This document shows, piece after piece, positions 13,845-52,102 of a stretch of DNA of 64,000 nt (position 1 is the first letter of the stretch; each line of letters begins with the position of its first letter). The notes beneath the pieces were generated by a model. It had not been told where the DNA came from. It ran no database searches and saw only the letters and a list, made by a program, of their open reading frames with translations. The position numbers and the translations under genes are program-made. Source of the stretch: Cyanobacteria bacterium P01_D01_bin.156 (lineage in GTDB: Bacteria > Cyanobacteriota > Cyanobacteriia > Phormidesmidales > Phormidesmidaceae); contig JBCCQQ010000028.1 of the NCBI GenBank assembly GCA_039024555.1, forward strand, positions 10,798 through 74,797. Reading direction: 5' to 3'.

Positions 13845-15287
<1,443 letters not shown>

Positions 15288-31010: not shown

Positions 31011-33032
31011 ATGGGGCAGGCAGATGTACTGGTAATTGGTGGTGGCCTGATTGGCCTAGCGATCGCAATCGAACTTCGGCAGCGGGGAGCAACTGTTACC
31101 GTACTGAGCCGCAACTTTGAGGCGGCCGCTGGCCACGCAGCCGCAGGGATGCTGGCACCCCAGGCAGAAAACCTAACAGGTCCGTTGCGGGAACTGAGCG
31201 ATCGCAGTTTAGCCTTATATCCAGAATGGAACCGTAAACTTGAAGAACTGACAGGTCAGGACACAGGTTACTGGCCCTGTGGCATTTTGGCACCTGTTTT
31301 TTCATCGGGAACCATCGGACAGAACTGTCTGAGTCAAGCGGCTATCCATAGCTATCAGCCCTATTTAAATCCAGAGGTGACAGGCGGATATTGGTATCCA
31401 TCTGAAGGACAAGCAGATAGCCGAGCGCTGATTAAGGCATTGCGTGTCACTGCCCAAGAATTAGGAGTCACGATCCAAGAGGGCGTGAGTGCCCATGCAT
31501 TTTTACAACACCATCAACAGGTTCAAGGAGTACTCACCACCAGCGGCCAACAGCAAGCTGGACACTACGTTTTAGCAACCGGAGCCTGGTCTAGTGAGTT
31601 ATTACCTGTCCCTGTAAAGCCTCGTAAGGGTCAGATGGCAAGCCTGCTGACGCCCTCCAACTCTGCCTACCAACTCAACCGAGTGCTTTTTGGAGAACAT
31701 ATTTATATTGTGCCGCGTAAAGATGGACGCATTGTGTTGGGTGCCACGAGTGAAGATGTGGGATTTGCTCCCCACAACACGGCAGCGGGGGTTCATCAAC
31801 TCCTACAGTCAGCAGTACAGCTTTATCCTCCACTGGCTAACTTTCCATTGCAAGAATGTTGGTGGGGCTATCGTCCTACCACGCCTGATGAGTTGCCAAT
31901 CTTAGGCCCGAGCCACTGTGACAACCTCACCCTAGCAACAGGACACCATCGCAACGGTGTCCTCCTCACACCCATCACTGCACAATTGATCGCTGATTCC
32001 CTAGAAGGCAAACCAGATACCCTTATCAACTCCTTCCATTGGCAACGGTTTACAGAAATACAACAACCCAATGGACCTACAGATCTCAATCCTATCAATG
32101 CTGTTGCTGCTGCAGAAAATCAGAACGGGGGTTCTCTAAACTCAACCCAAACGACAGGATCAAATCAAGCTCAATCCTTTGCCACTCCAACTTCTTCTAA
32201 TTCCATGCAAACTCTGTCTGCTCCTCCCACTGTTCAAAGTGATGATGCCTTGGTCATTGCTGGCCGTTCATTCTCATCTCGTTTGATGACAGGCACCGGT
32301 AAATTCGACAACTTTGATACGATGCGAGCTAGCTTAGCTGCCAGCGGTAGTCAGATTGTCACTGTAGCCGTGCGACGTGTTCAAACCAACGCCCCTGGCC
32401 ATGAAGGGTTAGCTCAGGCTCTGGATTGGACAAAAATTTGGATGTTGCCTAATACAGCAGGTTGCACTAACGCAGAAGAAGCCATACGAGTTGCCCGTCT
32501 AGGGAGAGAGATGGCAAAACTGTTAGGTCAAGAAGACAACAATTTTATTAAATTAGAGGTCATCCCCGATGCCAAGTATCTGTTACCCGATCCCATTGGC
32601 ACCTTGCAGGCAGCAGAACAACTCGTAAAAGAAGGATTTGCCGTCCTTCCCTATGTCAACGCCGATCCTATTCTAGCCAAACATCTAGAAGAAGCGGGGT
32701 GTGCAACTGTCATGCCCCTCGGATCTCCGATTGGCTCCGGTCAGGGTATACGCAACGCAGCAAATATTCAGATTATTGTTGAAAATGCCAATATTCCAGT
32801 TGTCGTGGATGCGGGTATTGGCAGCCCTAGCGAAGCTGCAGAGTCCATGGAACTCGGGGCCGATGCACTGTTGATTAATACTGCGATCGCAAAAGCCCAA
32901 GATCCCATAAAGATGGGTCGAGCCATGGGCCTTGCCACCGAAGCCGGCCGTTTAGCCTACCTAGCCGGGCGTATTCCAGTCAAAGGCTATGCCAGCGCTA
33001 GTTCTCCTCTAACCGGTACAATCACTAGTTAG
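31011..33032 (+). CDS. thiO-thiG: Fused glycine oxidase ThiO / thiazole synthase ThiG
   Basis: N-terminal 'VIGGGLIG...AAAGMLAP...[11 protein letters not shown]' (ThiO); C-terminal '[10 protein letters not shown]', 'LPNTAGC', 'KLEVI', '[13 protein letters not shown]' (ThiG). Confidence 0.95.
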
Positions 33033-33049: not shown

Positions 33050-34771
33050 TCACCCCTTAGCGGCTAAAAGACAAGCAGCCGAGATCATTGTTTTACCTTG
33101 ATCACTCACAACAGCACAATCTTGTTGCAGACGCTGCAAGGCCGATGGTTGTGCTCGCAGCTGGGTAATAGCGACTGTCCATTCAGCGTCAAATTGCCGT
33201 AGCCACATACCCGGCATATCATCTGGATTAAAAGATTGCTCATCCACAAGCCAAAAATCAATGCCATAGTCATTAATGACGGACTGCAGTACAGATAGGT
33301 CTGGACTATATTGAGCCCTGATCAAATCCAAAATACGTTGACGAATTTGGCGGTAATACCCTTGATGGTAAGCCAAACTATGACCACGACTTAGCAATAC
33401 TGAGCGTCCCGTAAATGCAGGAATATTCTCAGCCTCCTTAGCAAGAGAAGCAATCAGCGTATCTTTCGATTGCTGTTGAATATACTCGTATAAAACAACA
33501 CGATCGGACTTAATATAGAGAACGTTTAAAAAGCTATTGAGCAGCAAAGGATATCCCACTGTTATCATGGCAACTCCAGCAACCATAGCTATTGCCACCA
33601 GTTGTTTCCAGATCTGTTGCGGTGCACGGTTTAAGCGCTGTAATCCCCAATCCAATAGAGCTATCAGCACCACAGCAGACGCGATCGCAACAATGACCTT
33701 TAACGAATGACGACTATATCGACTGGGTAAATGCAAACGAAATAACACCCCATGGGATAACAAAAATAGAACAAACGAAACAATCCCAAATTGAACAATT
33801 AAGGTACCGTGGCGAGTAATTTTTTTCAGTAGCGGCAACTTCAACCATTGCAATAAAGGAAACAATAGGGAAAAACAAATCGTAGTCGGCACAACGGGGG
33901 GCAGTAATCCACTACGACCTGAGAACAGCCAATATCGTACCCAATCATCATGGAAGTATGAATTTCGCCCCCCTGGTTGAAATTCAGCCATAGTTTTAGC
34001 CTGTTCTAAGGTCACCACAGGACCATAGGGAGACGTGACCAGAACATAGGGCAAAAGGACCAATACAGCTACGATAGCACCAACAATAAACAGCCTAAAA
34101 TGATGTCCTTTACTCCCCTGTGACCAGACGATGCGCAGGGCTAACAACAATACGGAGATGAAGACAAGGTGTGGATAAAACAACCCTTGCAAACAAATCA
34201 CAACAGCGCAGCCAACAAGACTACGCCGAGAAACATAAAATAACAAAGCTAATATTAGCAACACACTAAAGGCCTTTGGCGTGCCGGACGGGAGTTCATC
34301 CCACATCCACAATGCCTGATTAAGAATAAGCGTATTAATAAATGCAATCAGTGGAACAGGAATAACAGCTAGCGCTAGATAAAATGTATATACCGTACCT
34401 AACAGGCAAATAAGGGGGGGCAACAGTTTATGAAATGTCAGCGGATGGATGCCTACCCATGCAGCTAGACGATAGATAGCCTTATAGCCAATAGGAGCCA
34501 CTGACTGAAAATAATCAGCAACCAGGTCACCAGGAAACAGACCAGGATCAACATAGCGCCACATCCAAAACACATGTTGCCGGGCATCATCCTGGATGGC
34601 GTAGGGCTGTTCAAATACAAGTCGCCAAAACAAAATGCCATAGAGCATCGCAAACAGAAGACTTGCAAACAGCCAAACACGCTGATTTTTGAGGGTAGAA
34701 CTCAGGCCATAATGATTGACCCAACTGGCGATAGTTTTCAAGACAGCATTACAAACAAGGTCCGGTCTCAT
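33050..34771 (-). CDS. Polytopic membrane protein, possible GT-C-type glycosyltransferase
   Basis: Multiple TM segments; 'IQDDARQHVFWM' acidic motif after TM1; soluble C-terminal domain. Confidence 0.6.
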   Translation of the reverse strand: MRPDLVCNAVLKTIASWVNHYGLSSTLKNQRVWLFASLLFAMLYGILFWRLVFEQPYAIQDDARQHVFWMWRYVDPGLFPGDLVADYFQSVAPIGYKAIYRLAAWVGIHPLTFHKLLPPLICLLGTVYTFYLALAVIPVPLIAFINTLILNQALWMWDELPSGTPKAFSVLLILALLFYVSRRSLVGCAVVICLQGLFYPHLVFISVLLLALRIVWSQGSKGHHFRLFIVGAIVAVLVLLPYVLVTSPYGPVVTLEQAKTMAEFQPGGRNSYFHDDWVRYWLFSGRSGLLPPVVPTTICFSLLFPLLQWLKLPLLKKITRHGTLIVQFGIVSFVLFLLSHGVLFRLHLPSRYSRHSLKVIVAIASAVVLIALLDWGLQRLNRAPQQIWKQLVAIAMVAGVAMITVGYPLLLNSFLNVLYIKSDRVVLYEYIQQQSKDTLIASLAKEAENIPAFTGRSVLLSRGHSLAYHQGYYRQIRQRILDLIRAQYSPDLSVLQSVINDYGIDFWLVDEQSFNPDDMPGMWLRQFDAEWTVAITQLRAQPSALQRLQQDCAVVSDQGKTMISAACLLAAKG

Positions 34772-34976
34772 CTTACTAGAGCCAGTGTCCAAAACAGATT
34801 CTACAACCAAGAGAATCCACAACCAGACACCATGTGGATCAGTGCAATGAAGGAGGCCTCGAATCTGAACACCAATTGCGACTACCCGCTCAGATACAAG
34901 TGCTGCTAAGCACCAATAAAAAACAGGACACCTGAATAGATATCCTGTTACACATTTAATCCGTTAACTGTGTAAG

Positions 34977-35441
34977 CTAAGCAGCTTTAACCAAAACTAG
35001 ATCACCGTCAATAATTGCTTCATAGGAACCGAGAGGATCCGTAGCAGGACCATTAGTTACACTGCCATCTATAGCAAATGTTGACCCATGACAAGGACAT
35101 GCAAAGGCACCATCTTCGAATGCAACGGAACATCCTTGATGAGTACACATAGAATTTAGGGCAATAACGCTGTCAGCACCGGCTGGGTCACGAATGACAA
35201 TCACAGGCCCAGCAATAAAACTCTTTTTAGCCAAAAAACCATTGGCATCTAAGTCAGCAACGCTACCTAGGGCAGCAAAGCCATCTTCACGAGGGGTTTC
35301 ATCGATAGCAGGTGGAGCAGAAGATGCAGCGGGTGCATCACTAGATGCTGTCTCTGGAGCCTTGCAAGCTGCGATCGCAACTGGCAAAGAAGTCGCAATC
35401 ATGCCTAAGCCAACTAAATTACCAAATTCACGACGATTCAT
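34977..35441 (-). CDS. Rieske [2Fe-2S] protein (PetC3-like), Tat lipoprotein
   Basis: Tat motif 'MNRREF', lipobox 'AIAAC', Rieske boxes CTHQGC and CPCHGS. Confidence 0.92.
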   Translation of the reverse strand: MNRREFGNLVGLGMIATSLPVAIAACKAPETASSDAPAASSAPPAIDETPREDGFAALGSVADLDANGFLAKKSFIAGPVIVIRDPAGADSVIALNSMCTHQGCSVAFEDGAFACPCHGSTFAIDGSVTNGPATDPLGSYEAIIDGDLVLVKAA

Positions 35442-35534
35442 AACTCACTTTCCTCTCTCACTAACTGCTGTAACGTCGGATACCAGGCATCTAAACAGGA
35501 GAAAAAGACGAACGCATCGTCTCAGGGCAACCCA

Positions 35535-37250
35535 TTAATTACCAGATGGATTAGAACTCACTACCTGAGCGGGCTCAGCATCTGAAACAAAGACGTTACT
35601 CAACCATCCTTGGTGACGAATGGCCGTAACCAGAACAAATAGCAGATCTAAACCAACAACACCAGCAATCATCATCTCTGAGCCACCGGTTCCAAAGCCA
35701 TAGCTGTGAAGCCCCGTACCTAAAACAAAATTCACGCCGTACCAAGCCATTAGCACTGCATTAAAGGCAACCACGCTAGCAACACTAATCCCAAAGTTGC
35801 CAATCCAACCCACTAAACGACCATGGAGAGGCACCAGATAACACAGCAATGCAATTAATGCCCAGGTTTCTTTTGGATCCCAGCCCCAGAAGCGCCCCCA
35901 GGAAAAATGCGCCCAGATTCCTCCTAAGATAATGCCACCGGTTAATAACAGGACACCCACCTGCAGCACTCGATAGTTCAGCTGAGAAAGCAACTTAATG
36001 CGAGAAGTCGCGTTGGGGGTAAATAAATAACTCCCCAAGGCCACATGGCCTAAACCAAGTGCTAGGGCAAAACTGGCATAGCTGAGCGCAATGGTCGGTA
36101 CATGAATACTCAGCCAGAAATTATCCCGTAGCACCGGCACTAGAGGAGAAATGCTGGGATCTAAAACAGCCGGTAGACTGTCAGCCAAAATTAAACACAC
36201 CACCGAGAGCGGAGCCGCTGCTAACAGGTAATACTTAGAGCGATGGAGTAATTCAAAGGCCAAGGCAATAGCCGCAATACCAAACCCAACCCAAACCACA
36301 GACTCATACATGTTGGTCACCGGAGGCCTACCGGCAATCTGCATCCGCAGCCAAAAGCCACAGCTTTGGACCATGACCCCAGCAACAAACGTCCCAATTG
36401 CAGTCCAGTACAAATTGAAAGGCTGCACCCATAGGGCCACCAACATAATGACAAAGGCAATGGCGTACAGCTGCCACGCCTTGGCAAAGGGATGAAAGTG
36501 ATTAAAAAAGACTTCCCGCTGCATCACCCCATTCGCTGGGTAGACGGTAGGACTAAGCTCGGCAAGACCTGTTTTCAAAGACTGCGCCAAAGGCTCCAGC
36601 ATCGGCAAATGGTCAGTACCCGACAAAATCGTTTGCTTAATAATGGCAAAGTTAGCCAACAGTGGCCCTACAGCCTCAGCCTCATAGAGACTCTGTGCTT
36701 CAGTAATGCCGACCCACTTACCCTTAATATCGTCAGGGTGGGGAACGATTGCGATCGCATTATCATCCACCATGCTCAACATCAGCTGCAGACGATCCTC
36801 AATGGTTAGTGCCTCACGCTCTTCGCGACTTAAATCTTCATCATCAATCTGTTTTCGATGAGCAGAACGCACCACTTCAGCCAGGGGCTCATTTCTCATC
36901 AATGTGGCAAAAGAGAAATGCTTTTGCTCTACATCCAAGCCAGCTAGCTCCTTTAAAGGGCGATAGCTCACCAACACAAATGGCTCTTCATTCCAGTTAC
37001 GGTTATTCAGCCACAGAGACATAAATGTTTCCATGGAGCTCTCTTGGATACCTTCATGCCGATAGGTAGTCGCCCCATAAATCTTGGCAACGGTTTCCTG
37101 AGCGACGGTGTCTAAAGGCTTTTTACGACCACCTTGCTGCACAGTCATCGTCTCTAAGCTATCTAGAGCAGATGGCTGAAACTGACTAATGGGCATAGCG
37201 ATTAGCAGTAGCCCTAAACATAAGCCAATCGCAAATTTGAGAAGTTTCAT
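35535..37250 (-). CDS. ccsA: System II cytochrome c synthase CcsA (long form)
   Basis: WWD domain 'WAHFSWGRFWGWDPKETWALI', conserved His in 'WLSIHVP' and 'GLHSYG', 'PPVTNMYES'; extra N-terminal soluble domain ('GRKKPLDT'). Confidence 0.93.
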   Translation of the reverse strand: MKLLKFAIGLCLGLLLIAMPISQFQPSALDSLETMTVQQGGRKKPLDTVAQETVAKIYGATTYRHEGIQESSMETFMSLWLNNRNWNEEPFVLVSYRPLKELAGLDVEQKHFSFATLMRNEPLAEVVRSAHRKQIDDEDLSREEREALTIEDRLQLMLSMVDDNAIAIVPHPDDIKGKWVGITEAQSLYEAEAVGPLLANFAIIKQTILSGTDHLPMLEPLAQSLKTGLAELSPTVYPANGVMQREVFFNHFHPFAKAWQLYAIAFVIMLVALWVQPFNLYWTAIGTFVAGVMVQSCGFWLRMQIAGRPPVTNMYESVVWVGFGIAAIALAFELLHRSKYYLLAAAPLSVVCLILADSLPAVLDPSISPLVPVLRDNFWLSIHVPTIALSYASFALALGLGHVALGSYLFTPNATSRIKLLSQLNYRVLQVGVLLLTGGIILGGIWAHFSWGRFWGWDPKETWALIALLCYLVPLHGRLVGWIGNFGISVASVVAFNAVLMAWYGVNFVLGTGLHSYGFGTGGSEMMIAGVVGLDLLFVLVTAIRHQGWLSNVFVSDAEPAQVVSSNPSGN

Positions 37251-37317
37251 GGATTGAGAAGCAATAATGTTGTGAGATTAAAAACGTATTCTTATGTCAG
37301 AGCAACCATTGCTCTCA

Positions 37318-39114
37318 CTAACGGCTTGAGAAAAAACTCAGAATAGGAATGGGTGAGGTAGCCTCTCCAGATTTCTCTTCCCCATCAGATGAGCCTAAAA
37401 GATTAGCAGCAATCTTTAGATTTTTAGCCACCGAACGACCATAGAACATAACAGCCACTCCAATCGTGACCATCAGCGACCCTAACCAAGTCAGCCCCGT
37501 GACCCACCAAGGCTCCCGCTTTACCTGCAAGGTAGACTGGGCTAAATCTCCTGGATTCCAGGACGCTTGGGCAATTTTCCATCCTCTAAACCAAGTGGGA
37601 TGATTCATCCATACGCGCCGCTCAGATAAATCACCATTCGCAGGGTCCATCAAGGTCATTAAGCTAGTCCACATTGCCACAGACTCACTACCCTCATTGC
37701 GCTCCACAATAAAATCATTGAGTTTAAGCGCAAAAGGTAGCTGCATGAGTTTCGGACTAAATGCCACATACCAGGTTGTATCACTATCTTCTACCGTGGT
37801 TGGCTCTCCCCACGGGACCCAAGTAAGCGTGCCATCTGCCGTGGATATCTGCAAAGCAGGCTCTCCGCCTTCCGAACCCTCTGGCAAAGGTACCACATCA
37901 CGCTCAACTCGGGCTCTGGGAACATACTCCTCAAGAGTAATTGCAAAATCAGCCCAACCAGGCATAATCGACTGGCCCACCACAAGTGGACCTGACTTAA
38001 ACCCTTTAGACGATTTAGCCGCGTAGTAGAGATGCCCATCAGCATCAACGATTACCTTAAAGAATGCGTCTGGTTGAGCGTCAGCAGAAATGGTATAACG
38101 CACATCAACATCCAAGGGCGCATCTCCTGCCAGCTGGGTACGAATGGGAGAAAATTCTGGATTACCAAAAACAAACCATCGCTCAGCAACATCACCGATG
38201 GATAGCTCCAGCTGCACAGCTGGATTGCGCAATTGCTGAGTAGACGTTTCGGGCTGACCGTTGCCATCCAGACGAAAATCAGGCCAAAAATCTTTAACGG
38301 TGAGGGTTACATCATCCAAATGCATGACCTTGCCAAGGCCAGCTTTCACATCTACGCTCTGACCACCTTCTGAGACCTGCAAAGTACCCCAAACGCCACC
38401 AAGACTTTCTTCAGATGGCTGCTGTAGCGAATTTCGTAAAGCTTGCTCAGAATCAACCTTAGCAATCTGCAACTCAGCAGGTCCAATATCCATTCGGTCG
38501 TAAGCAGCAGGTGCCACCGCCAACCAACGCTCTAGGCTTTGCCCCATACGTTGGCTACTCAGAGCAAGACGCACTGCCGGATTGTCAATAGCAGCACCAT
38601 CAACGAAATGAACCGTTTTAATGGCGTGGCTGGTGTAACCAAGCAGAGACAAATCTCCAAGATGATCAGGAACAACCGTGCCATCACCTTTAATAAATAA
38701 GGATGTTTGCTGCGTCTCCTTACCAGGTACAGCAACTTCCACTAAATCCCCTTCTACCCGCAGCGTACTAACGGGGCCACCATCGGTACGAGCCAGCAAC
38801 ATTCCCTCAACACTTAAATGGATGACAGCCGCTGAACCAGCAATAATTACGACTAGCCCCCAGTGGGCAATTGCAAAGCCAACCTTACGTGCCCCTCGCC
38901 ATGGATAGCGCAACAATGTAGACACACTCAAGTTCACCGCCAGCAAAAACATCAGAGCTCCGAACCACGGACTCTTATAAATCTCTTGCTGAACAACCGC
39001 CGATCCGACCTCTGCCTCATAAAATGTGGCACCGATTAACACAGCACCGATCACTGCGAGCAGAGGCACAGCCAACCGAATTGAGCCAATAAATTGAATC
39101 GCTACAGAACCCAT
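37318..39114 (-). CDS. ResB/CcsB-like cytochrome c biogenesis protein
   Basis: 'GSIRLAVPLL...IYKSPWF...NL...GFAIAHWGLVVII.G' ResB N-terminus; 'LPFALKLNDF', 'MNHP', C-terminal TM; adjacent to ccsA. Confidence 0.85.
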   Translation of the reverse strand: MGSVAIQFIGSIRLAVPLLAVIGAVLIGATFYEAEVGSAVVQQEIYKSPWFGALMFLLAVNLSVSTLLRYPWRGARKVGFAIAHWGLVVIIAGSAAVIHLSVEGMLLARTDGGPVSTLRVEGDLVEVAVPGKETQQTSLFIKGDGTVVPDHLGDLSLLGYTSHAIKTVHFVDGAAIDNPAVRLALSSQRMGQSLERWLAVAPAAYDRMDIGPAELQIAKVDSEQALRNSLQQPSEESLGGVWGTLQVSEGGQSVDVKAGLGKVMHLDDVTLTVKDFWPDFRLDGNGQPETSTQQLRNPAVQLELSIGDVAERWFVFGNPEFSPIRTQLAGDAPLDVDVRYTISADAQPDAFFKVIVDADGHLYYAAKSSKGFKSGPLVVGQSIMPGWADFAITLEEYVPRARVERDVVPLPEGSEGGEPALQISTADGTLTWVPWGEPTTVEDSDTTWYVAFSPKLMQLPFALKLNDFIVERNEGSESVAMWTSLMTLMDPANGDLSERRVWMNHPTWFRGWKIAQASWNPGDLAQSTLQVKREPWWVTGLTWLGSLMVTIGVAVMFYGRSVAKNLKIAANLLGSSDGEEKSGEATSPIPILSFFSSR

Positions 39115-39195
39115 AAAACAAGGAGATAATAAAATGCTAGCCAGTTAACCAGCTAGCAACATCCAACAATCTTCACCACGAACGCTAGTATTTTT

Positions 39196-39211
39196 TGTAA
39201 AAGAAATCACA
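39196..39211. promoter_or_regulatory. CRP/NtcA-family-like palindrome in the divergent promoter region
   Basis: TGTAA-AAGAAA-TCACA, one mismatch to TGTGA-N6-TCACA; 82 bp upstream of the ResB-like start. Confidence 0.35.
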
Positions 39212-39827
39212 CTTTTTTGGGTTTTACCGTCCGTGATTCCCACACTATGCGAAAAACGAATCACTCATCATCAATAAACGCAAGTAGCAATTGTTTTCGG
39301 AACAAAGCAAACACCAGTAATCAATGTAGAACAGTCTCAAAAAAAATGCTAAAACGCCTTTTGAGAATGAATTATGACTCTTGAAAGATATTCCATCAGA
39401 TGGAAACAACATTATTTTCTTCTGTCAAAAAAAGCTCAATCCCCTTTTTGCAAGTATTGAATGCAATAAAAGGATTAGTACATATTTTTGGTATCTGAAG
39501 CAACAAAAAAATACTTAGGATCGCCATACCTTGATAGTCACATAAGTGTCCGCACGATTACGTATCCTTCTCCCTTGAAAAGAGTGGAATTTGTTTTCGA
39601 GCTTTCTCTTATGTAAAACGATCAGAGAACCTGTTGATTTGGCGACGTGCAGTTTTAATTCCTTGAGCTTTATATCCTCCATATCTCTGTTTTGTTAATT
39701 TTTTCTAGTATTTCTCAACCTAGTTTTGGGGACTCGAAGAATTGCTTAACAGGCAGTAGACGCGCACCTCGTAGGTTCTTTGAAACAAACCCTGTAATGT
39801 AAATTTGTTGAATTCGAGACTGTAGGC

Positions 39828-40817
39828 ATGTCCTTAAACGTTGAGTTGTTAGAGCAGAGCTTCGAACTCGTGAAGCCAAAAGCAGATGAGTTTGTAGGAA
39901 GTTTCTACAACAATCTGTTCACTGACTATCCAGCCGCTAAGCCCCTGTTTGAGCATTCCGATATGGGGAAGCAACAACAGATGCTGAAGGGAGCTCTAGT
40001 CATGGTGATTGAGAACCTCAGAAAGCCAGAGGCGTTAAGCAAGGCTCTCAAGGGTTTGGGGGCACGCCACGTCAAGTATGGAGCACTTCCAGAACATTAT
40101 CCTTTAGTGGGAAATAGTCTGCTTAAAACTTTAGAGCAGTATGCGGGTAGCGCTTGGACTTCAGAGCTTAAGGAGGCTTGGACAGGTGCCTATGGTGCCA
40201 TCACCGAACTCATGCTTGAGGGAGCTGACTACACAAAGGAAGAAGTTGCTCTAGAAAACGTACCAGCGCCCGCTGAAGAAGGTGGTCTAAAGGTTGAGCT
40301 TTTAGAGAAAAGTTTTGCATTGGTAGCGCCAAAAGCCGATGATTTAGTCTCGACATTTTACGACAATTTATTTACTGACTATCCAGACTCTAGACCTCTG
40401 TTTGAGCACACTGATATGGCCAATCAGAAGAAGATGCTTAAGGGTGGTTTAGTCATGGTTATCGAAAATCTTCGTAAGCCTGAAGTATTAAGTAAAGCCC
40501 TGAAGGGATTAGGCGCTCGCCACGTCAAATATGGAGCTCTACCAGCCCACTATCCTTTGGTAGGCAACAGTCTTCTCAAAACATTAGAACAGTATGCAGG
40601 CTCTGCATGGACTTCTGATGTTAAAGAAGCTTGGGTCGGTGCTTACGGAGCTATCACTGAACTAATGCTTGAGGGAGCCGAATATGACAAACAGGACGTT
40701 CAGCTAAGTTCTGCTGAAACAGTTGCTGTTCCTGAGGGCATTGGGATGGGAAAAGTAGGCGGCATCATCGGTGGTGGAGCTGCTCTTTTAGTTATTCTCA
40801 TGATTATTCTGCTTTAG
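39828..40817 (+). CDS. Tandem two-domain globin with C-terminal membrane anchor
   Basis: Two 3/3 globin domains (period 151 aa), each with 'FY..LF..YP...LF', E7-like Gln and proximal His 'LGARHVKYG'; C-terminal TM 'GGIIGGGAALLVILMIILL'. Confidence 0.92.
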   Translation: MSLNVELLEQSFELVKPKADEFVGSFYNNLFTDYPAAKPLFEHSDMGKQQQMLKGALVMVIENLRKPEALSKALKGLGARHVKYGALPEHYPLVGNSLLKTLEQYAGSAWTSELKEAWTGAYGAITELMLEGADYTKEEVALENVPAPAEEGGLKVELLEKSFALVAPKADDLVSTFYDNLFTDYPDSRPLFEHTDMANQKKMLKGGLVMVIENLRKPEVLSKALKGLGARHVKYGALPAHYPLVGNSLLKTLEQYAGSAWTSDVKEAWVGAYGAITELMLEGAEYDKQDVQLSSAETVAVPEGIGMGKVGGIIGGGAALLVILMIILL

Positions 40818-40838
40818 GTTGGGTTGTTTAGGGATTTC

Positions 40839-41480
40839 ATGGCACGCTCCTTAAAGCAAAGATTAGGGAAATTACTTTCGCTCAGAACAGGAATTATTCT
40901 GGCCATAGCCATGCTTCTAGTCTGGGTTTCAGCAGCATTTGCGCTGGACCAGAAGCAGATATTTTTGCCAGGCGAAACGTCCGAGGGACATCATATTTTT
41001 GAAGCTTCTTGTGCCTCTTGTCATGAAGGTTTCAAGCCTGTGAGTAATGAGACATGTACTCGCTGTCATCAAGCTGAATTGGTAGACGATGTCCACGGTG
41101 TTAAAAAATTTCGAGATCCTCGCTGGGCAGAATATCGCGAACGTGTTGATGTGCTTACATGTACAGCTTGTCACAACGAGCATGTTCACATGTTTGGACG
41201 AGGTGTGAATCTACAGCCTGACCTCTGTATGGCGTGTCATGAGGAGTTGACGCTTACCCAGCTGAAGAGTCATGAGGGCTTTGCAGCTGATGGATGTTGG
41301 ACGGCTGGCTGTCACAATTACCACGATCACCGAACCATATCCACTGGATTCTTACGGCAAAACATGGGAGCTCCAGAGATGCTGCCTGTTCAACAGGTTC
41401 CAGAGCGGGTGGTAACCACATCGCTCGATTCAGCACCTGCACCTAATCTCCAGAAAGAGTTTCTTGGAGGTGGTTCATGA
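40839..41480 (+). CDS. Exported multiheme cytochrome c (4 CXXCH + 1 CX4CH)
   Basis: CASCH, CTRCH, CTACH, CMACH, CWTAGCH; N-terminal TM/signal; extra His residues as candidate distal ligands. Confidence 0.9.
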   Translation: MARSLKQRLGKLLSLRTGIILAIAMLLVWVSAAFALDQKQIFLPGETSEGHHIFEASCASCHEGFKPVSNETCTRCHQAELVDDVHGVKKFRDPRWAEYRERVDVLTCTACHNEHVHMFGRGVNLQPDLCMACHEELTLTQLKSHEGFAADGCWTAGCHNYHDHRTISTGFLRQNMGAPEMLPVQQVPERVVTTSLDSAPAPNLQKEFLGGGS

Positions 41481-42286
41481 TTGCCCACATCAGTCAATTA
41501 ACATTGCGTTCCCTGCTGATTTTCACCTTGGTGACTGGCTTAATTGTGGGTTACCCGCACTCAGCGATCGCAACTACTGAGCAGGAGCTAGCCGATATCA
41601 CAGCCCAGTGGGAAGCGAGTGTTCATGGTCTCAATGACATCAACTGCTCTAGCTGTCATGAGAATAAGGAAACCAACGAGTTCGTTGCATCTCCTAATCA
41701 TGAGAGCTGTCAATCATGTCATGAGCAGTCCGTCGAAACATTTTTGCTAAGTAAGCATGGGATTCGTCTGTTAGAGGACAAATCCAGCCTGACCCCAGCC
41801 ATGGCTAGGTTACCTATGCAACATGCTGCTTTTGATAAGCAGATGAACTGCAATGCCTGTCACAACGTGCATTCAGTGAACACGGTTGAGGCATCTGTGG
41901 ATGCTTGCTTGACTTGCCATAATGACAATCACTCTCTGAACTATAGAAATTCAAAGCATGCTCAATTGTTTGCCGACAGCAAGTCGCTGCCTCAGCCAGG
42001 GGCTGGAGCCGTAAGCTGTGCCACGTGTCATCTACCGCGTTTTTCTGATGAGAATGCTGGTGACGTCGTCAGAGTGAATCACAACAATACCTACAACCTC
42101 AAGCCGCAGGATCGCATGGTGGGGGATGTATGTATGAACTGTCACGGCATTGAGTACAGCTACAACAGTATTTTCGACCCTGAGCTGGTCGAAGCCAATT
42201 TTGACCGACCTCCAACCCTTGAAATGGAGACCTTCGACTTGATGAAGGCTGCTGAGGCAAGGAGATCGGGCAATGACTCTGAGTAA
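41477..42286 (+). CDS. Exported hexaheme cytochrome c
   Basis: CSSCH, CQSCH, CNACH, CLTCH, CATCH, CMNCH; signal peptide ending AIA; ATGA overlap with the upstream gene. Confidence 0.9.
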   Translation: MIAHISQLTLRSLLIFTLVTGLIVGYPHSAIATTEQELADITAQWEASVHGLNDINCSSCHENKETNEFVASPNHESCQSCHEQSVETFLLSKHGIRLLEDKSSLTPAMARLPMQHAAFDKQMNCNACHNVHSVNTVEASVDACLTCHNDNHSLNYRNSKHAQLFADSKSLPQPGAGAVSCATCHLPRFSDENAGDVVRVNHNNTYNLKPQDRMVGDVCMNCHGIEYSYNSIFDPELVEANFDRPPTLEMETFDLMKAAEARRSGNDSE

Positions 42287-42416
42287 CAGTAAATTGTTGC
42301 TCGGACCCCTCTGTGTGGCTTGGCCACATTTGCATTGAAACCTTTTGACCAGGGCCTTCAATATCTAAATGTAGCCAAGAGCGACATACCCGGATGTACC
42401 AGGAGACAATCGATAA

Positions 42417-43076
42417 ATGATAGCTAATTTATTTCAGCGCATTCGCGCTAGGACAATTGCCTTATTGGGTCTAGCAGCTGCAGTATGTTTCACGGCTGTT
42501 GCGTGCAGCGGTGGCAGTTCAACTGTTGCTACAGCAGGACCCAGTATTTCCCCCGACTTAGTTGCTGACTACATTCATACTGTGTTAGCAGCTGACCGTA
42601 CGGCCTATACTAAGCACGTTGTAAACCGTGTTAAGACCCTCGAAGGTAAAGCCAAAGAAAAAGGCGTACTAGAGGTTGAGTCTACAGAAGGTTGGCAACA
42701 GACTGATGGTATTCCTCTACCCGCTCAAATGTTCCGTCTAGGTTCCGAGATCGCTAACGAGTCTGGTTATTTCACCTATAATCTCATCTCTACTTGGTAC
42801 ATCAACGACAACCATGGTCCCAAGAGCGATTTTGAAACAGTTGCGCTAGCTGAAATGGAAGCTAGTGGTGAAGCTTACAAGGATTATCAAGAGGTTGGTG
42901 GTCAGGCATATTTCTCTGCTATGTACCCTGATAAAGCCGTAGCTGAAGCTTGTGTGACTTGCCACAACACTCATCCTATTCACCTTGAGCGCTATCCTGA
43001 CAAGCAGTTTGAAATGGGTGAAGTAATGGGTGGTGTAGTTATCAACATTCCCGTTGATAGCATGCCTGCTTCCTAA
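42417..43076 (+). CDS. Tll0287/DUF3365-like monoheme c lipoprotein
   Basis: Lipobox 'TAVAC', 'ADRTAYT..VV', 'PLPAQMFR', 'AVAEACVTCHN', 'GEVMGGVVINIP'. Confidence 0.85.
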   Translation: MIANLFQRIRARTIALLGLAAAVCFTAVACSGGSSTVATAGPSISPDLVADYIHTVLAADRTAYTKHVVNRVKTLEGKAKEKGVLEVESTEGWQQTDGIPLPAQMFRLGSEIANESGYFTYNLISTWYINDNHGPKSDFETVALAEMEASGEAYKDYQEVGGQAYFSAMYPDKAVAEACVTCHNTHPIHLERYPDKQFEMGEVMGGVVINIPVDSMPAS

Positions 43077-43134
43077 GTAGCGGATCTGTTTCATTCTGTC
43101 TCCCTAAATAATAGCGATGGGAGTTTTCAGACAT

Positions 43135-43173
43135 ATAAGGTATGGCTTCATATTTTGAGAAGCTATACCTTAT
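43135..43173 (+). terminator. Intra-operon stem-loop
   Basis: ATAAGGTATGGCTTC...GAAGCTATACCTTAT inverted repeat. Confidence 0.55.
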
Positions 43174-43312
43174 TGCAGGTTTTGGCTTTGCTGATTTCTA
43201 AGGTTTTTGAATCTAGCGTATGGTTTTGTGCGCAATATTTTTGACAGATTGATTCATCTTTTGAGTCATCAACAGCTTTTGTTAAATCACTCACCACTTG
43301 TCCCCTAGGGTA

Positions 43313-43906
43313 ATGAAGCCTAAATTTTCCACCCTGATTATATTGACATTATTGAGCGCACTACTTTTGGTGCCTTTTGTTGTCAGCCCCATATATTTGG
43401 ACATGCTGCGAGAGCGGTCCATTGAACTGCATCACTTTATTCGGGGTGAAGTTTATAAGCAAGCCACTGGTTATGTTGCCCTCGCCTTTGTGGTTATAGA
43501 AATGCTCTTATCGCTACGTAAACGAGGTCGTAGCTGGATAGGAAAAATTAAGCTCCCCGGTTCTGTCATATGGTGGCGGGTTTCTCATATATTTTTAGGT
43601 GTGGCTCTGTTAGCCGTGGTTTTAGTTCATACCATTGGAGCGACTGGTCTGAATTTTAATGCAATCTTTCTATGGGTATTTTTTGCAGTCACCCTATCAG
43701 CGTTAGTGGGTGTGGTAGCAGAAACAGGCGTTTTGGAATCTCCACGTAAGTTATTTGGTTTGCCTGGCAATAAAGAGTTAACAATCACCAAAGGTCCTTT
43801 GATTAGAAATATGCGAGCCATTTGGTTACCCACTCACATTTTTCTTGTGAGTGTTTTTGTTTTAATGCTTGGTATCCATATTTTTCTCGCTTATTACTAC
43901 CGTTAG
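43313..43906 (+). CDS. Membrane protein with two HX13H motifs (putative di-heme cytochrome b)
   Basis: About five TM helices; 'H-IFLGVALLAVVLV-H' and 'H-IFLVSVFVLMLGI-H'. Confidence 0.7.
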   Translation: MKPKFSTLIILTLLSALLLVPFVVSPIYLDMLRERSIELHHFIRGEVYKQATGYVALAFVVIEMLLSLRKRGRSWIGKIKLPGSVIWWRVSHIFLGVALLAVVLVHTIGATGLNFNAIFLWVFFAVTLSALVGVVAETGVLESPRKLFGLPGNKELTITKGPLIRNMRAIWLPTHIFLVSVFVLMLGIHIFLAYYYR

Positions 43907-43920
43907 GGAGATATTAGTGG

Positions 43921-44412
43921 ATGGTTTCTAGTTCTGAAAAAGTAGCTGATGGCGCATCAAAGCCCTGGTTTAAAGGATTGATTGTCGGCATAGCCCTTAT
44001 GGCTGCAATTATTGTCACCCTATTCATAACTCGCCCTGCGGCTACCAGTACCAGCTTTGCTCCTTTGTCTGGGCTGGTTACCCTGAAGGCCATGGCCAAT
44101 GAAAGCGTTGCCTACGGAGATGCGATCGCTTCTGAGAAGCCTATTTTTTTGGAATTTTATGCAGACTGGTGTACCACATGCCAAGGCATGTCTGGAACAA
44201 TCGCCGATCTACATCAAACCTACGGCAACAATATTGAATTTGTCATGCTTGATATTGATGATCCCCAGTGGGCTCCGCAAGTTTTAGAGTATGGAGCTTC
44301 GGGCGTACCCCAATTCACTCTTCTGAATGGGCACCATGAAGAAGTAAATACATGGGTAGGAAAAGTCCCTAAGCCTATTCTGGCAAACGTTTTTGAGCAG
44401 CTAGTTGGGTAA
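43921..44412 (+). CDS. Membrane-anchored thioredoxin (TxlA/HCF164-like)
   Basis: N-terminal TM; 'LEFYADWCTTC'; cis-Pro loop 'GVPQF'. Confidence 0.88.
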   Translation: MVSSSEKVADGASKPWFKGLIVGIALMAAIIVTLFITRPAATSTSFAPLSGLVTLKAMANESVAYGDAIASEKPIFLEFYADWCTTCQGMSGTIADLHQTYGNNIEFVMLDIDDPQWAPQVLEYGASGVPQFTLLNGHHEEVNTWVGKVPKPILANVFEQLVG

Positions 44413-44421
44413 GTTATTGCA

Positions 44422-44640
44422 ATGACTCTATTAGATCGGTTTCTAAAATTATTAGAATTCCTAGAAACAGCCCAGGACGCCTTTGAGTTTTTAACGGACC
44501 CCATAGGCTTATCTGGAGTATTGGCCATTTGCCTTTATTTCCCGATTCAAAGCTTAGGGTGTGACTCACCGGCAGCAGCTACTCTGGCCTGTTCAGCAGC
44601 TCTTACATTCTTCTGTTTAGTAGAAAAACCAAAGTTTTAA
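44422..44640 (+). CDS. Small hypothetical membrane protein
   Basis: 72 aa, starts 9 nt after the thioredoxin, two hydrophobic segments, ends before a terminator. Confidence 0.45.
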   Translation: MTLLDRFLKLLEFLETAQDAFEFLTDPIGLSGVLAICLYFPIQSLGCDSPAAATLACSAALTFFCLVEKPKF

Positions 44641-44722: not shown

Positions 44723-44778
44723 AACTCAGTAGCTTTATGGGCATGATGTACAACAGCATGTCATAAAGCTACTGAGTT
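44723..44778. terminator. Long hairpin / bidirectional terminator closing the globin-cytochrome operon
   Basis: 17-bp perfect arms AACTCAGTAGCTTTATG / CATAAAGCTACTGAGTT between convergent genes. Confidence 0.75.
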
Positions 44779-44810: not shown

Positions 44811-45737
44811 CTATCGAGGTAAATTCAGCACTCCATTTTGATTCAACCACTGAACCTGATTATCTGTGAGACCTTGAACATCAGTAAATATAGCACCAGA
44901 CACTTTGGCATCAGTCAAATCTACGGCTGTTAAGTTAGCGTTTTCAAGGTTTGCCTGCTGCAAATTGACTCCAGCAAGGTTTGCCCCGGCTAGATTCGCT
45001 CTTTCCAGATCAGCACCCATCAGAGAAGCCCCTGTCCAATCCGTTTCGACCAAGTTAGCACTATTAAACTTTGCCCAGTCTGCTTGGGAGCCCATTAAAA
45101 CAGCACCGGTCAGATGGGCAGCAGACAAGTTAGCATTAAGCAAGTTGGCATCAATAAACTTAGAACCTTCAAGATTTGCATTGATCAAACATGTTGCTTC
45201 GAGGTCAGCTTTTTCAAATGAAGCACCGCGTAGCGCAGCTCGGTTGCAACGACTTCTAGTCAAGTTAGCCCCGTCAAAATTGGCTTCACTAAAGTCTGCA
45301 TCGGCTAATTTAGCCTTAACTAGGTTTGCCCAATTGAAATGAGCCCTATGACCAATGGCATTAGACAAGTCTGCCTGGGTCAACGTTGCAAAAGATAGGT
45401 CTGCTTCAGTTAAGTGCGCGCCATGAAACTTAGCCCTGGGTGCATGAAGTTCACGAAAAATACCACGCTCCAAACGAGCACGAGTTAGCTCAGCTGATTC
45501 TAAACGCGCTTTATCAAAACGCGCATCTGAAAGGACAGCCAGCACCAATGTGGCCTTGGAGAAATCAGTCCCTTCGCAGGATGCCCCCGTTAGATTAGCC
45601 TGACGCAAATAGGCTTGGACAAAATTGCCACGATCTAGAGCAGCGCCCCCCAAATTAATACGACTCAACTCAGCTCGACGCAATGACTGCTGGTGGCTGA
45701 CTTTAGAAAGTACTTCATCGACAGTAAGCTGAGTCAT
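44811..45737 (-). CDS. Pentapeptide repeat protein
   Basis: Continuous A(D/N)LXX repeats (ANLTG, ADLSN, ANLVK, ANLEG...). Confidence 0.93.
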   Translation of the reverse strand: MTQLTVDEVLSKVSHQQSLRRAELSRINLGGAALDRGNFVQAYLRQANLTGASCEGTDFSKATLVLAVLSDARFDKARLESAELTRARLERGIFRELHAPRAKFHGAHLTEADLSFATLTQADLSNAIGHRAHFNWANLVKAKLADADFSEANFDGANLTRSRCNRAALRGASFEKADLEATCLINANLEGSKFIDANLLNANLSAAHLTGAVLMGSQADWAKFNSANLVETDWTGASLMGADLERANLAGANLAGVNLQQANLENANLTAVDLTDAKVSGAIFTDVQGLTDNQVQWLNQNGVLNLPR

Positions 45738-46005
45738 AATTTCGAAAATCCTTGATATGGTATCAGAAGCTACCAAATATATTCATAACTGTATAATACA
45801 CAACAGTTTTGGGATATTCGTTATGAGTTAAGAATTATTTTCGAATATTTATCTAGATTCCCTGACATATGGTTCCTGTAGCAAGTGGGCATCATCCCTC
45901 AATGGTTTAGCTTTTGCTTAACTAAGTTCTTGGCAAACAGCATTCACAAAAAACCATATCACTCTTGCCTTTATAAAAATCTCTTGAGAATTGTTGTTTA
46001 CATGC

Positions 46006-49600: not shown

Positions 49601-50767
49601 GTGTCTAGCCCGCCTACTACGCTAGTTCCTGAGACCCAACCCCTAAAAAAACAAAATACTTGGCAAAGAACATTGCCCCGTTGGAATCGTCTTGCCCACC
49701 GCTGGCTTGCGATAGCAATTTCTATCCCCATGATCTTTGTGATTGCTACAGGGATCTTTTTACAAGTTCGTAAGCCTGTTGATTGGATTCAGCCGCCTAC
49801 AGCTAAAGGTTCTCAGCAGTATCAACCCACTGTCGCCTTAGAACAAGTCTTAAGTCAGGTGAAAACTGTTCCAGACATGCAGGTGACCGACTGGTCAGAT
49901 ATAAAGTTGTTAGACCTGCGTCCTAAAAAAGGCATTATCAAAGTACGCAACCATAATGAGTTAGAAACTCAAGTAGACGCGACTACGGGAGAAGTTCTTC
50001 AAACTGGCCAGCGACTCAATGACTTTGTTGTGCAGATGCATGAATTTTCTGCTTGGGGAGCCCGGCTATGGTTAGGACTACCTGTGAGATTAGGGTTTTT
50101 AGTACTTTTTCTCACGGGTGTATATCTAAACATTAAATCAACACCAGCCCGTGTAAGACAGCTGTTCGTCAGGCGGAAGCCGACTAAATCGACTGCAGGG
50201 GCAGAGGCTCTGGTATCTACAGCAGTAAATCAAACAGCTGAAACTAACGTGTCCCCTCCGGTCGTAAACGTCAGCGATGCTAGACCAAAGCGTTTACGAC
50301 TTAAGGCGTGGCTCTTGAAATACCATTTCTGGCTCGGATGGATTGTTATTATTCCCTGGGCATTTGTAATCAGCAGTGGTCTATTACTACAGGTACGTTA
50401 TGAAGTGCCTTGGGTGATGCCAGTACAGCAGCAAGGTCAGGGCATAGTGCCTCAGATGGAGTTTGTTCAAGTTCTAGAAACTGCTCGTCAAACGTCTAAC
50501 TTTAATGTTCAAGACTGGAAAGATGTCTGGCGAGTTTATGTCTACCCCAACAAAGGTATCACAACAATTCGCGCTAAAAACCGTCAGGAACTACAGGTTG
50601 ATTCTTCAACTGGGGAGGTTTTACAAGTTGCTATTCGCAGAACCGATTGGCTAGAAGATATCCATGAAGGTAAATGGATGGGGTTGAATCTCACATTCTT
50701 TTTACCTGTGCATATTTTATCGCTGTTTCTATGGCTGACTGGCACGATTATTGCCTACAATCGCTAG
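49601..50767 (+). CDS. PepSY-associated TM helix protein, internally duplicated
   Basis: Two modules: 'HRWLAI..ATGIFLQ..QVDATTGEVLQ..QMHE' and 'HFWLG..SSGLLLQ..QVDSSTGEVLQ..DIHEG'; GTG start after RBS GGAGG. Confidence 0.8.
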   Translation: MSSPPTTLVPETQPLKKQNTWQRTLPRWNRLAHRWLAIAISIPMIFVIATGIFLQVRKPVDWIQPPTAKGSQQYQPTVALEQVLSQVKTVPDMQVTDWSDIKLLDLRPKKGIIKVRNHNELETQVDATTGEVLQTGQRLNDFVVQMHEFSAWGARLWLGLPVRLGFLVLFLTGVYLNIKSTPARVRQLFVRRKPTKSTAGAEALVSTAVNQTAETNVSPPVVNVSDARPKRLRLKAWLLKYHFWLGWIVIIPWAFVISSGLLLQVRYEVPWVMPVQQQGQGIVPQMEFVQVLETARQTSNFNVQDWKDVWRVYVYPNKGITTIRAKNRQELQVDSSTGEVLQVAIRRTDWLEDIHEGKWMGLNLTFFLPVHILSLFLWLTGTIIAYNR

Positions 50768-50840
50768 ACTCAATTTTTCTCAGATGACGTAAACTATCCC
50801 AGCGGTTGTAAGTTCACAAAACATAATCTGACGAGTGACT

Positions 50841-50873
50841 AAAGCTAGCCTTGCTGACGCGAGGCTAGCTTTT
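50841..50873 (+). terminator. Rho-independent terminator
   Basis: AAAGCTAGCCTTGC-tgac-GCGAGGCTAGCTTTT. Confidence 0.75.
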
Positions 50874-51142
50874 AATTTCAGTTGCTAATTATTCCGCAAC
50901 TGCTAAGGATATGCCAAGGTGTGAGATGAATCAAGGACCCGTGGGAAAGCTATAGCTACAAACGCCATATGCTAAATCGGCAGAATGTATTACGTGCACT
51001 GGGATCGTAGAGTTTTCTAGGAGAATCAGTATAAAATCTCTAACCGCCCTATCAGGGAATCTACTGCACGTCTTGAAAGAAATACGATGCAGATATTTTT
51101 CATCTACTTAAATAGTTCGCCGTATTAGTTCAAATACTCATA

Positions 51143-52039: not shown

Positions 52040-52102
52040 TACTGATGTAAACACAAAGAGTTCAATATTAAACGCTACTTGAACTGCTTGATGCTCTGAT
52101 CC

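What the first reader, a model, noticed from the sequence alone, without database searches (positions are those of the whole stretch)
34977..44412. Self-contained globin / multiheme-cytochrome electron-transfer locus with its own heme-attachment machinery in a cyanobacterium
Seen: two divergent operons around a 713-bp intergenic region. The left arm is ResB/CcsB-like, long CcsA and a Tat Rieske lipoprotein. The right arm is a membrane-anchored di-globin, 5-heme and 6-heme exported cytochromes c, a monoheme Tll0287-like lipoprotein, a 2xHX13H membrane protein and a CXXC thioredoxin, closed by a strong hairpin (44723-44778). That totals 12 c-heme motifs plus predicted b-hemes and a [2Fe-2S] centre. 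Established: typical cyanobacterial c-type cytochromes (f, c6, c550, cM) are monoheme, and System II maturation needs CcsA, CcsB and a thioredoxin such as HCF164/CcsX. Inference: this is a complete, probably acquired, trans-membrane redox chain (quinol pool - cytochrome b/Rieske - multiheme c - acceptor) coupled to a cytoplasmic globin. Candidate functions are NO/nitrite/hydroxylamine handling, micro-oxic respiration, sulfide oxidation or extracellular electron transfer. I know of no characterised system with this composition.
Basis: partly seen in the sequence, partly recalled or inferred. Interest (0 to 1): 0.92.

Follow-up and report, generated by a model that had tools for sequence, protein, structure and literature searches.

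The report
Nitrogen-controlled globin and haem-wire module
Ten neighbouring genes in this cyanobacterium appear to build a nitrogen-regulated chain of haems running from a haemoglobin inside the cell to cytochromes outside the membrane, most likely to dispose of nitric oxide; relatives in other bacteria end in either a haemoglobin or a predicted nitric-oxide reductase, and I found no description of the system.

Summary
In detail: nine genes, 12 c-haem motifs (one CX4CH), plus a missed tenth 72-aa gene. The scan noted this module before in three other genomes. It is conserved (membrane gene in 60 of 401 cyanobacterial genomes) and old, not a recent insertion. The right arm has an NtcA class II promoter (49 of 61 loci; 1.2 in shuffles). 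In other bacteria the two cytochromes are one 11-haem protein, and the membrane protein is fused to an NAD(P)H flavoprotein, so electrons probably run outward. Its C-half resembles hydroxylamine oxidoreductase without the catalytic haem. New here: those operons end in a globin (47) or an sNOR-type NO reductase (6), never both or neither (53 loci; at least two independent swaps). Published Acaryochloris RNA-seq shows two orthologues down in micro-oxia and up in hyperoxia, like glnN. That argues against micro-oxic respiration or anaerobic electron export. The Rieske protein is optional, so this is not a bc-type quinol chain. Best reading (0.5): a nitrogen-regulated NO sink. The cyanobacterial donor and the outer acceptor remain unidentified.

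The parts
34922..34949 (-). Terminator-like hairpin closing the left operon
   Evidence: 12 pairs, T tail; consensus match only
34977..35441 (-). PetC3-like Rieske [2Fe-2S] protein with Tat/lipoprotein signal; optional part
   Evidence: Pfam Rieske; best PDB match 5cxm, E 3e-17; absent in 8 of 13 intact divergent loci
35535..37250 (-). Long CcsA/ResC haem-attachment subunit (WWD motif at residue 451), second copy
   Evidence: 31% to housekeeping copy; present in 13 of 13 intact divergent loci
37318..39114 (-). ResB/CcsB-like haem-attachment subunit, second copy
   Evidence: housekeeping copy on C19; 12 of 13
39197..39210 (-). Second NtcA-like site, placed to serve the left operon; its -10 box is degenerate
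   Evidence: conserved block in 12 aligned relatives; strict class II pattern on this strand in only 1 of 61 loci
39491..39532 (+). NtcA class II promoter: GTA-N8-AAC, 22 nt, TAN3T; leaves a leader of about 290 nt
   Evidence: calibration
39828..40817 (+). Two flavohaemoglobin-type globin domains with a C-terminal membrane anchor (TyrB10, GlnE7, LeuE11, HisF8, TyrG5)
   Evidence: these residues invariant in 30 of 30 rows; helix labels recalled
40824..41480 (+). Five-haem cytochrome c (4 CXXCH + CX4CH); N-half of the 11-haem protein of other bacteria; weakly MtrA-like
41477..42286 (+). Six-haem cytochrome c; HAO-like but lacking the catalytic haem-4 motif; six invariant non-motif His
42417..43076 (+). 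Tll0287-like (sCache_heme) monohaem lipoprotein; invariant Met105 and His186, no conserved distal Cys
43298..43906 (+). Five-helix membrane protein with two His pairs; inferred di-haem b conduit; basic cytoplasmic loops (+6.8, +3.2)
   Evidence: weak cytochrome b561-type Pfam hits in 21 of 89 members; fused to NAD(P)H flavin domains elsewhere
43921..44412 (+). Membrane-anchored CXXC thioredoxin, CcsX/HCF164-like by inference; optional
   Evidence: absent in 4 of 13 intact divergent loci
44422..44640 (+).
   Evidence: 56 of 65 loci
44723..44778 (.). Strong hairpin between convergent genes; probable two-way terminator
   Evidence: no Rfam family reached
44811..45776 (-). Pentapeptide-repeat gene that often travels with the module
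   Evidence: 30 of 53 loci; 10 of 13 divergent loci, inside the operon in several

Best explanation
An NtcA-activated nitric-oxide sink built on a trans-membrane electron conduit. Step 1 (strongly indicated): the right arm is switched on by NtcA when carbon exceeds nitrogen. Step 2 (inferred): the left arm and the thioredoxin attach the 12 c-haems on the outer face of the cytoplasmic membrane. Step 3 (inferred from His pairs and loop charge): the five-helix protein holds one b-haem near each face. Step 4 (shown only as gene fusion in relatives): cytoplasmic reductant loads it, NAD(P)H through FAD and [2Fe-2S] in other bacteria, probably ferredoxin in cyanobacteria. Step 5 (inferred): the tethered globin draws electrons on the inside and turns NO plus O2 into nitrate, which can be assimilated. 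Step 6 (inferred): the eleven haems, probably all bis-His, carry further electrons to the Tll0287-like haem and on to an outer NO-reducing site. That site is an sNOR in some relatives and is unidentified here.
For: Terminal gene of the non-cyanobacterial operon: globin only in 47, haem-copper enzyme only in 6, both 0, neither 0, of 53 loci with at least 2.5 kb downstream. That enzyme has Asn in place of the active-site Tyr and Asn, Tyr+4, Tyr+11, Glu+12, matching the sNOR column of Dataset S1 of PMC11214002. The swap needs at least 2 changes on the tree. An ANTAR regulator or nitrate-type ABC binding protein lies nearby in 13 of 26 loci with 5 kb on both sides, and NirB, NirA or Nas genes in L103, L104, L152, L162. 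NtcA promoter in 49 of 61 close loci (shuffles 1.2) and 10 of 12 divergent loci; GTA-N8-TAC ranked first among all 3+3 palindromes. Of 8 intergenic matches to the extended pattern in this genome, one is this globin and three precede Sll0783/MSMEG_0569/0570 nitrogen-starvation-cluster genes. Globin pocket of Vgb/Cgb/Hmp type. AM1_4406 and AM1_4409 change by log2 -1.36 and -2.55 in micro-oxia and +0.97 and +1.91 in hyperoxia; glnN by -1.89 and +1.08. Precedent: Bjgb-Flp.
Against: No experiment ties the module to NO. This genome has no NOR by the searches made (two COX1 matches only; no qNOR domain), so the outer wire has no known end point. No stand-alone partner flavoprotein was found; the best match is a full NirB. 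sNOR activity is itself predicted, not measured. Six of the 7 sNOR loci are one group at 74-82% identity. 55 of 80 metagenome loci show no ANTAR or NrtA gene, many being short. glnB falls in hyperoxia (-1.53), so not all NtcA targets move together. Only 2 of the 5 core orthologues are in the differential table. qNOR exclusion is weak: 2 of 70 module-positive against 9 of 70 negative genomes, p 0.055, confounded by genus. Cytoplasmic globins could be re-reduced without any wire.
Confidence: 0.5

Rival explanations
1. A periplasmic assimilatory reductase: the wire ends in a split HAO/NrfA-type site, the missing catalytic haem being supplied in trans by the Tll0287-like subunit, and reduces NO, hydroxylamine or nitrite to ammonium.
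For: Asp150 and His152 align with the Asp-His pair that follows haem 6 in HAO (its catalytic role recalled) and are invariant in 47 of 47 rows. The flavin half is the NirB input module. The Tll0287-like protein has spare conserved ligands, His186 in 50 of 50 and His54 in 48 of 50. Nitrogen control fits an assimilatory role.
Against: The ligand budget closes without an open site: 11 conserved non-motif His for 11 haems. An sNOR in the same operon would be redundant. True NirB sits beside the module in L103 and L104.
Confidence: 0.15
2. An electron-overflow or O2-scavenging valve for nitrogen-limited cells: surplus reductant is exported or burned on O2, with NO only incidental.
For: Up in hyperoxia, down in micro-oxia. 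NtcA control fits excess reductant. A c5-type cytochrome is kept in 42 of 80 non-cyanobacterial loci, with or without sNOR.
Against: The alternative terminal enzyme lacks the Tyr that PMC11214002 says O2 reduction needs. No porin is conserved in the cyanobacterial core.
Confidence: 0.15
3. In cyanobacteria the flow is reversed: an outer donor (hydroxylamine, or another carrier through PetC3) feeds electrons inward to the tethered globin, which has taken the place of the lost flavoprotein.
For: Cyanobacteria lack the flavin domain, and 77 of 91 globin ORFs have a hydrophobic tail; non-cyanobacterial globins are short (median 138 aa). HAO ancestry of the six-haem protein.
Against: The oxidising haem P460 motif is absent. 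Basic inner loops are kept in both groups. The Rieske gene is optional.
Confidence: 0.12
4. One reading: quinol-linked micro-oxic respiration, sulfide oxidation, or anaerobic extracellular electron transfer.
For: Multihaem content; weak MtrA likeness of the five-haem half; Tll0287 family membership.
Against: Orthologues fall in micro-oxia; Rieske optional; NAD(P)H input in relatives; no conserved Cys ligand; NtcA-type promoter.
Confidence: 0.06

Closest known systems
Bradyrhizobium narK-bjgb-flp-nasC (PMC4724949)
   Same: Single-domain Vgb/Cgb-type globin plus an NAD(P)H flavoprotein, tied to nitrate assimilation and NasT control, acting against NO.
   Different: No membrane conduit or c-type haems are described there. 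Here the flavoprotein is fused to a haem-b domain (relatives) or absent (cyanobacteria), and 12 c-haems lie outside.
HAO / epsilon-HAO / NrfA octa- and pentahaem family
sNOR (PMC11214002)
   Same: Cupredoxin plus haem-copper subunit with the sNOR residue pattern ends the operon in 7 of 80 metagenome loci.
   Different: Not in this window or genome. I found no report of a dedicated NAD(P)H-to-sNOR wire.
Tll0287 / stand-alone sCache_heme proteins (10.64898/2026.02.01.703092)
   Same: Pfam family and CXXCH; stand-alone members behave as redox carriers with weak NO binding.
   Different: No conserved distal Cys; invariant Met105 and His186; fixed place in this operon, not mentioned in the three of six parts read.
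Dedicated System II maturases (NrfI, CcsA1; recalled) and the Tenderia uet cluster (10.1101/2022.05.06.490989)
   Same: A second ccsAB pair beside multihaem substrates; uet also has an 11-haem protein.
   Different: uet has a porin, NHL repeats and 11 canonical CXXCH; sequence homology to UetJ was not tested.
MsrQ / NOX / cytochrome b561 di-haem conduits
   Same: Two His pairs on helices 3 and 5; weak Pfam hits.
   Different: No curated family cut-off was shown to be reached and no solved relative was found by profile.

Membership tests
HAO/NrfA catalytic multihaem enzymes | HAO-type haem arrangement and fold | tested here: met
   (fold from fused homologue P0003, pLDDT 93)
HAO/NrfA catalytic multihaem enzymes | Catalytic haem 4 motif (CXXCH for P460, or CXXCK) | tested here: not met
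   No motif between haems 3 and 5; no CXXCK in long homologues
HAO/NrfA catalytic multihaem enzymes | A five-coordinate haem with catalytic turnover | not testable with these tools
   Model coordinates are not returned; His count is compatible with all bis-His
Cytochrome bc1/b6f-type quinol oxidoreductase | Obligate Rieske partner | tested here: not met
   Missing in 8 of 13 intact divergent loci and not among window-query matches in 80 metagenome loci
Cytochrome bc1/b6f-type quinol oxidoreductase | Cytochrome b family match with quinone sites | tested here: inconclusive
   No cytochrome b/b6 Pfam hit in 89 members, no PDB hit; no structure model obtained
FHb/SDgb (M-family) NO-dioxygenase globins | TyrB10, PheCD1, GlnE7, LeuE11, HisF8, TyrG5 | tested here: met
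   Invariant in 30 of 30 rows; nearest structures 3wfw, 3s1i, 3ubc, 1vhb
Flavohaemoglobin (Hmp) | Fused FAD/NAD reductase domain | tested here: not met
   159 bits against cut-off 432, globin part only
FHb/SDgb (M-family) NO-dioxygenase globins | NO-dioxygenase turnover | not testable with these tools
   needs assay
Bjgb-Flp system | Globin and flavoprotein in one operon | tested here: not met
   No flavoprotein in the cyanobacterial cluster; met in relatives
System II cytochrome c synthase | CcsA with WWD motif plus ResB partner | tested here: met
   below the TIGR03144 cut-off (155 against 188), so a divergent copy
NtcA class II promoter | GTA-N8-TAC, about 22 nt, TAN3T (consensus recalled) | tested here: met
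   One mismatch in the window; exact in 10 of 12 divergent loci
NtcA class II promoter | NtcA binding and nitrogen-dependent induction | not testable with these tools
   No nitrogen-shift data found; only O2-shift data
sNOR (relatives only) | Asn for Tyr, Tyr+4, Tyr+11, Glu+12, cupredoxin partner | tested here: met
   L094 and L103 sequences against Dataset S1; no tree with reference sNORs was built
Porin-cytochrome conduits (Mtr, uet) | Conserved outer-membrane barrel in the cluster | tested here: not met
   None in the cyanobacterial core; porin-like genes in a few metagenome loci only

The most novel reading that the evidence does not exclude
A new nitrogen-cycle enzyme type: a membrane-spanning analogue of NirB. 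Cytoplasmic reductant crosses the membrane through two b-haems and eleven c-haems to an HAO-derived scaffold that has lost its own catalytic haem and borrows one from a Cache-domain subunit, reducing NO or hydroxylamine to ammonium outside the membrane, while the tethered globin turns NO into nitrate inside. Benthic cyanobacteria would then harvest NO from neighbours as a nitrogen source.
Probability: 0.15. Interest if true: 0.93.

Novelty: new variant of a known kind. Interest (0 to 1): 0.74.

Why it matters
Cyanobacteria are usually taken to have only monohaem c-type cytochromes, apart from peroxidase-type dihaem proteins (recalled). Here about 15% of sampled genomes (60 of 401) carry a 12-haem outer chain under nitrogen control. 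The globin-or-sNOR swap gives a testable function for an unstudied 11-haem family, a candidate electron supply for sNOR (whose activity is unmeasured), and a context for two orphan proteins, PetC3-like Rieske and Tll0287-like. Cultured strains carry it, among them Acaryochloris marina MBIC11017 and Leptolyngbya sp. PCC 7375. If the module recovers NO as usable nitrogen it matters for nitrogen retention and N2O budgets in mats and reefs.

Full report
Observation. The motif count is 4 CXXCH plus CX4CH, 6 CXXCH and 1 CXXCH. Pfam names Rieske, CcsA, ResB, two globins, Tll0287-like and thioredoxin, and has nothing for the 202-aa membrane protein. Housekeeping ccsA and ResB lie on other contigs, and no other ORF of the genome has more than two CXXCH. 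A tenth gene of 72 aa follows the thioredoxin (44422-44640; 56 of 65 loci).

Conservation. A scan of species genomes gave 118 relatives, of which the best 80 were kept; all named ones are cyanobacteria. All nine genes are present in the same orientation in 44 of 51 loci that span the cluster, and the six right-arm genes in 57 of 59. The membrane gene is in 70 of 140 genomes of the order and 60 of 401 of the class, in many families. I took 14 more divergent regions; one (L186) is broken up by transposase-like ORFs. In the other 13 the order globin, five-haem, six-haem, Tll0287-like, membrane protein is intact, ccsA is in 13, resB in 12, thioredoxin in 9 and Rieske in 5, within the 20 kb read. 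Base composition is like the genome's. On a quick tree the 13 cyanobacterial rows form one group on a long branch. The module is old and patchily kept.

Relatives outside cyanobacteria. Longer homologues are fusions of the two cytochromes. Of 102 hits over 380 aa, 74 have 10 CXXCH plus CX4CH and 13 have 11 CXXCH. Named members include Arenicella, Granulosicoccus and Terriglobia. Eighty metagenome loci, the best of 401 confirmed, show one operon: NirB-like FAD and BFD flavoprotein fused to the membrane domain, 11-haem protein, Tll0287-like gene, often a c5-type cytochrome, then a globin. Counts of 80: flavin part 66, membrane part 70, Tll0287-like 77, c5 42, globin 61, haem-copper subunit 7. 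All 97 long homologues of the membrane domain carry an NAD(P)H flavin domain, 96 NirB-like and one FNR-like. No ccsA or resB match was seen in these loci, so the dedicated maturase is a cyanobacterial addition. An NAD(P)H input implies outward electron flow in those organisms (inference).

The terminal swap. Of 53 loci with at least 2.5 kb downstream, 47 have only the globin, 6 only a cupredoxin plus haem-copper subunit, none both and none neither (27 shorter loci left out). The subunit has Asn where oxidases have the cross-linked Tyr. PMC11214002 (passages; supplement file 1 whole) says enzymes without that Tyr do not reduce O2, and lists N243, Y247, Y254, E255 for sNOR; L094 and L103 show that spacing. 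The tree needs at least two changes of this label, but six of seven loci are close kin. The shared known substrate of the two alternatives is NO. This is the strongest functional clue, and the short earlier notes shown to me did not mention it.

Regulation. GTA-N8-TAC was the most enriched of all 3+3 palindromes in 61 intergenic regions (28 loci against 3.8). Alignment of 12 close copies shows two conserved blocks. The right one is a site, 22 bases, then TAN3T (39491-39532). A pattern allowing TAC, AAC or CAC, chosen after seeing the alignment, is in 49 of 61 loci on the globin strand, 1 on the other, 1.2 in shuffles; the exact class II form is in 10 of 12 divergent loci examined. Kin are not independent. 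In this genome a similar pattern has 19 matches, 8 intergenic; one is this globin and three precede genes of the Sll0783/MSMEG_0569/0570 nitrogen-starvation cluster (5 of the downstream proteins were scanned). Outside cyanobacteria an ANTAR or NrtA-type gene is near in 25 of 80 loci, and in 13 of 26 with long flanks.

Expression. Proteins of L189 and L192 cluster with A. marina MBIC11017 AM1_4410 and its neighbour. Table S3 of PMC5295598 (rows seen; passages) gives control / micro-oxic / hyperoxic values of 109 / 42 / 215 for the globin AM1_4406 and 416 / 70 / 1567 for AM1_4409. glnN gives 251 / 67 / 532, glnA 453 / 203 / 460, glnB 83 / 76 / 28. So the operon is transcribed in air and falls without O2. 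This fits NtcA control or an O2-requiring reaction and does not separate them. A short RNA (AM1_4405, 10,120) starts 389 bases before the globin; in L189 the predicted -10 box ends about 400 bases before the first ATG, a rough match across strains.

Mechanism. Best reading, 0.5: an NtcA-activated NO sink. Reductant loads a di-haem conduit; the tethered globin uses it to make nitrate from NO and O2; the outer chain passes further electrons to an NO-reducing site. Shown: gene content, conservation, promoter footprint, fusions and the swap in relatives, O2-dependent expression of two orthologues. Inferred: cofactors, direction in cyanobacteria, ferredoxin as donor, NO as substrate. The main gap is that this genome has no NOR by the searches made and no partner flavoprotein apart from a full NirB.

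Comparison. It works most like Bjgb-Flp of Bradyrhizobium (PMC4724949; abstract and one discussion section) but is not a member: no flavoprotein here, and a whole outer chain is added. It is not an HAO or NrfA (catalytic motif absent), not a bc complex (Rieske optional) and not Mtr/uet (no conserved barrel; uet passages). Searches found no paper on the module; PMC9230427 (passages) only lists a DUF3365 protein. The library lacks most subscription papers. Three earlier scan notes describe the same module on other DNA; I tested their conservation, nitrogen-control and nitrate-cluster claims and they held.

Verdict. Real, conserved and apparently undescribed; parts from known families in a new arrangement, with an unstudied 11-haem HAO derivative at its centre. 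Novelty: new variant of a known kind. Interest 0.74.

Noticed in passing
G000:C5:141110-144208 (L177:11111-14209, - strand): The genome encodes NADH-type NirB (871 aa) and a NirD-like gene, uncommon in cyanobacteria; NirB matches in 14 of 140 genomes of the order. A possible NO source or electron donor.
   Followed up: partly
G000:C50:11729-12178 (L178:8730-9179): A second PetC3-like Rieske gene, 63% identical to the cluster's, beside a dihaem peroxidase-like gene and adenylate-cyclase-like genes.
   Followed up: partly
window 39539-39827; L189 leader: Long leader before the globin. In A. marina a 195-nt RNA from this place (AM1_4405) is about 90 times more abundant than the globin mRNA, suggesting attenuation or a leader-derived small RNA. 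No Rfam match.
   Followed up: partly
window about 43135-43173: Strong hairpin between the Tll0287-like gene and the membrane gene; could set subunit ratios.
   Followed up: no
L058:14848-15726 and 15 other loci: A ChaN-like haem-binding gene follows the thioredoxin in 16 cyanobacterial loci but not in this window.
   Followed up: partly
L045, L047, L052, L053, L056, L058, L065, L068, L076: An extra globin gene between the membrane gene and the thioredoxin.
   Followed up: no
L186; L168; G426:C19:6075-6605: Copies broken by transposase-like ORFs or stop codons, showing ongoing loss.
   Followed up: no
G000:C11:77661-79844; C129:3412-3696: Sll0783 / MSMEG_0569 / MSMEG_0570 nitrogen-starvation genes with clear NtcA-type promoters.
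   Followed up: partly
G000:C94:10767-12875: 702-aa fusion of a LysR domain and an ABC substrate-binding domain behind an NtcA-type promoter.
   Followed up: no
window 33050-34822: 590-aa membrane protein without a Pfam match, with a 36% paralogue on C33; beside the cluster only in close relatives.
   Followed up: no
window 31011-33032: ThiO-ThiG fusion; ThiC at 13902-15287. Ordinary.
   Followed up: no
window 49601-54163: Low-GC stretch (about 0.41) with a PepSY membrane gene, a PBP-type gene and a sensor kinase; possibly a separate insertion.
   Followed up: no
P0455: The same membrane domain fused to cNMP-binding, BFD and FNR-like domains, a second flavin input.
   Followed up: no
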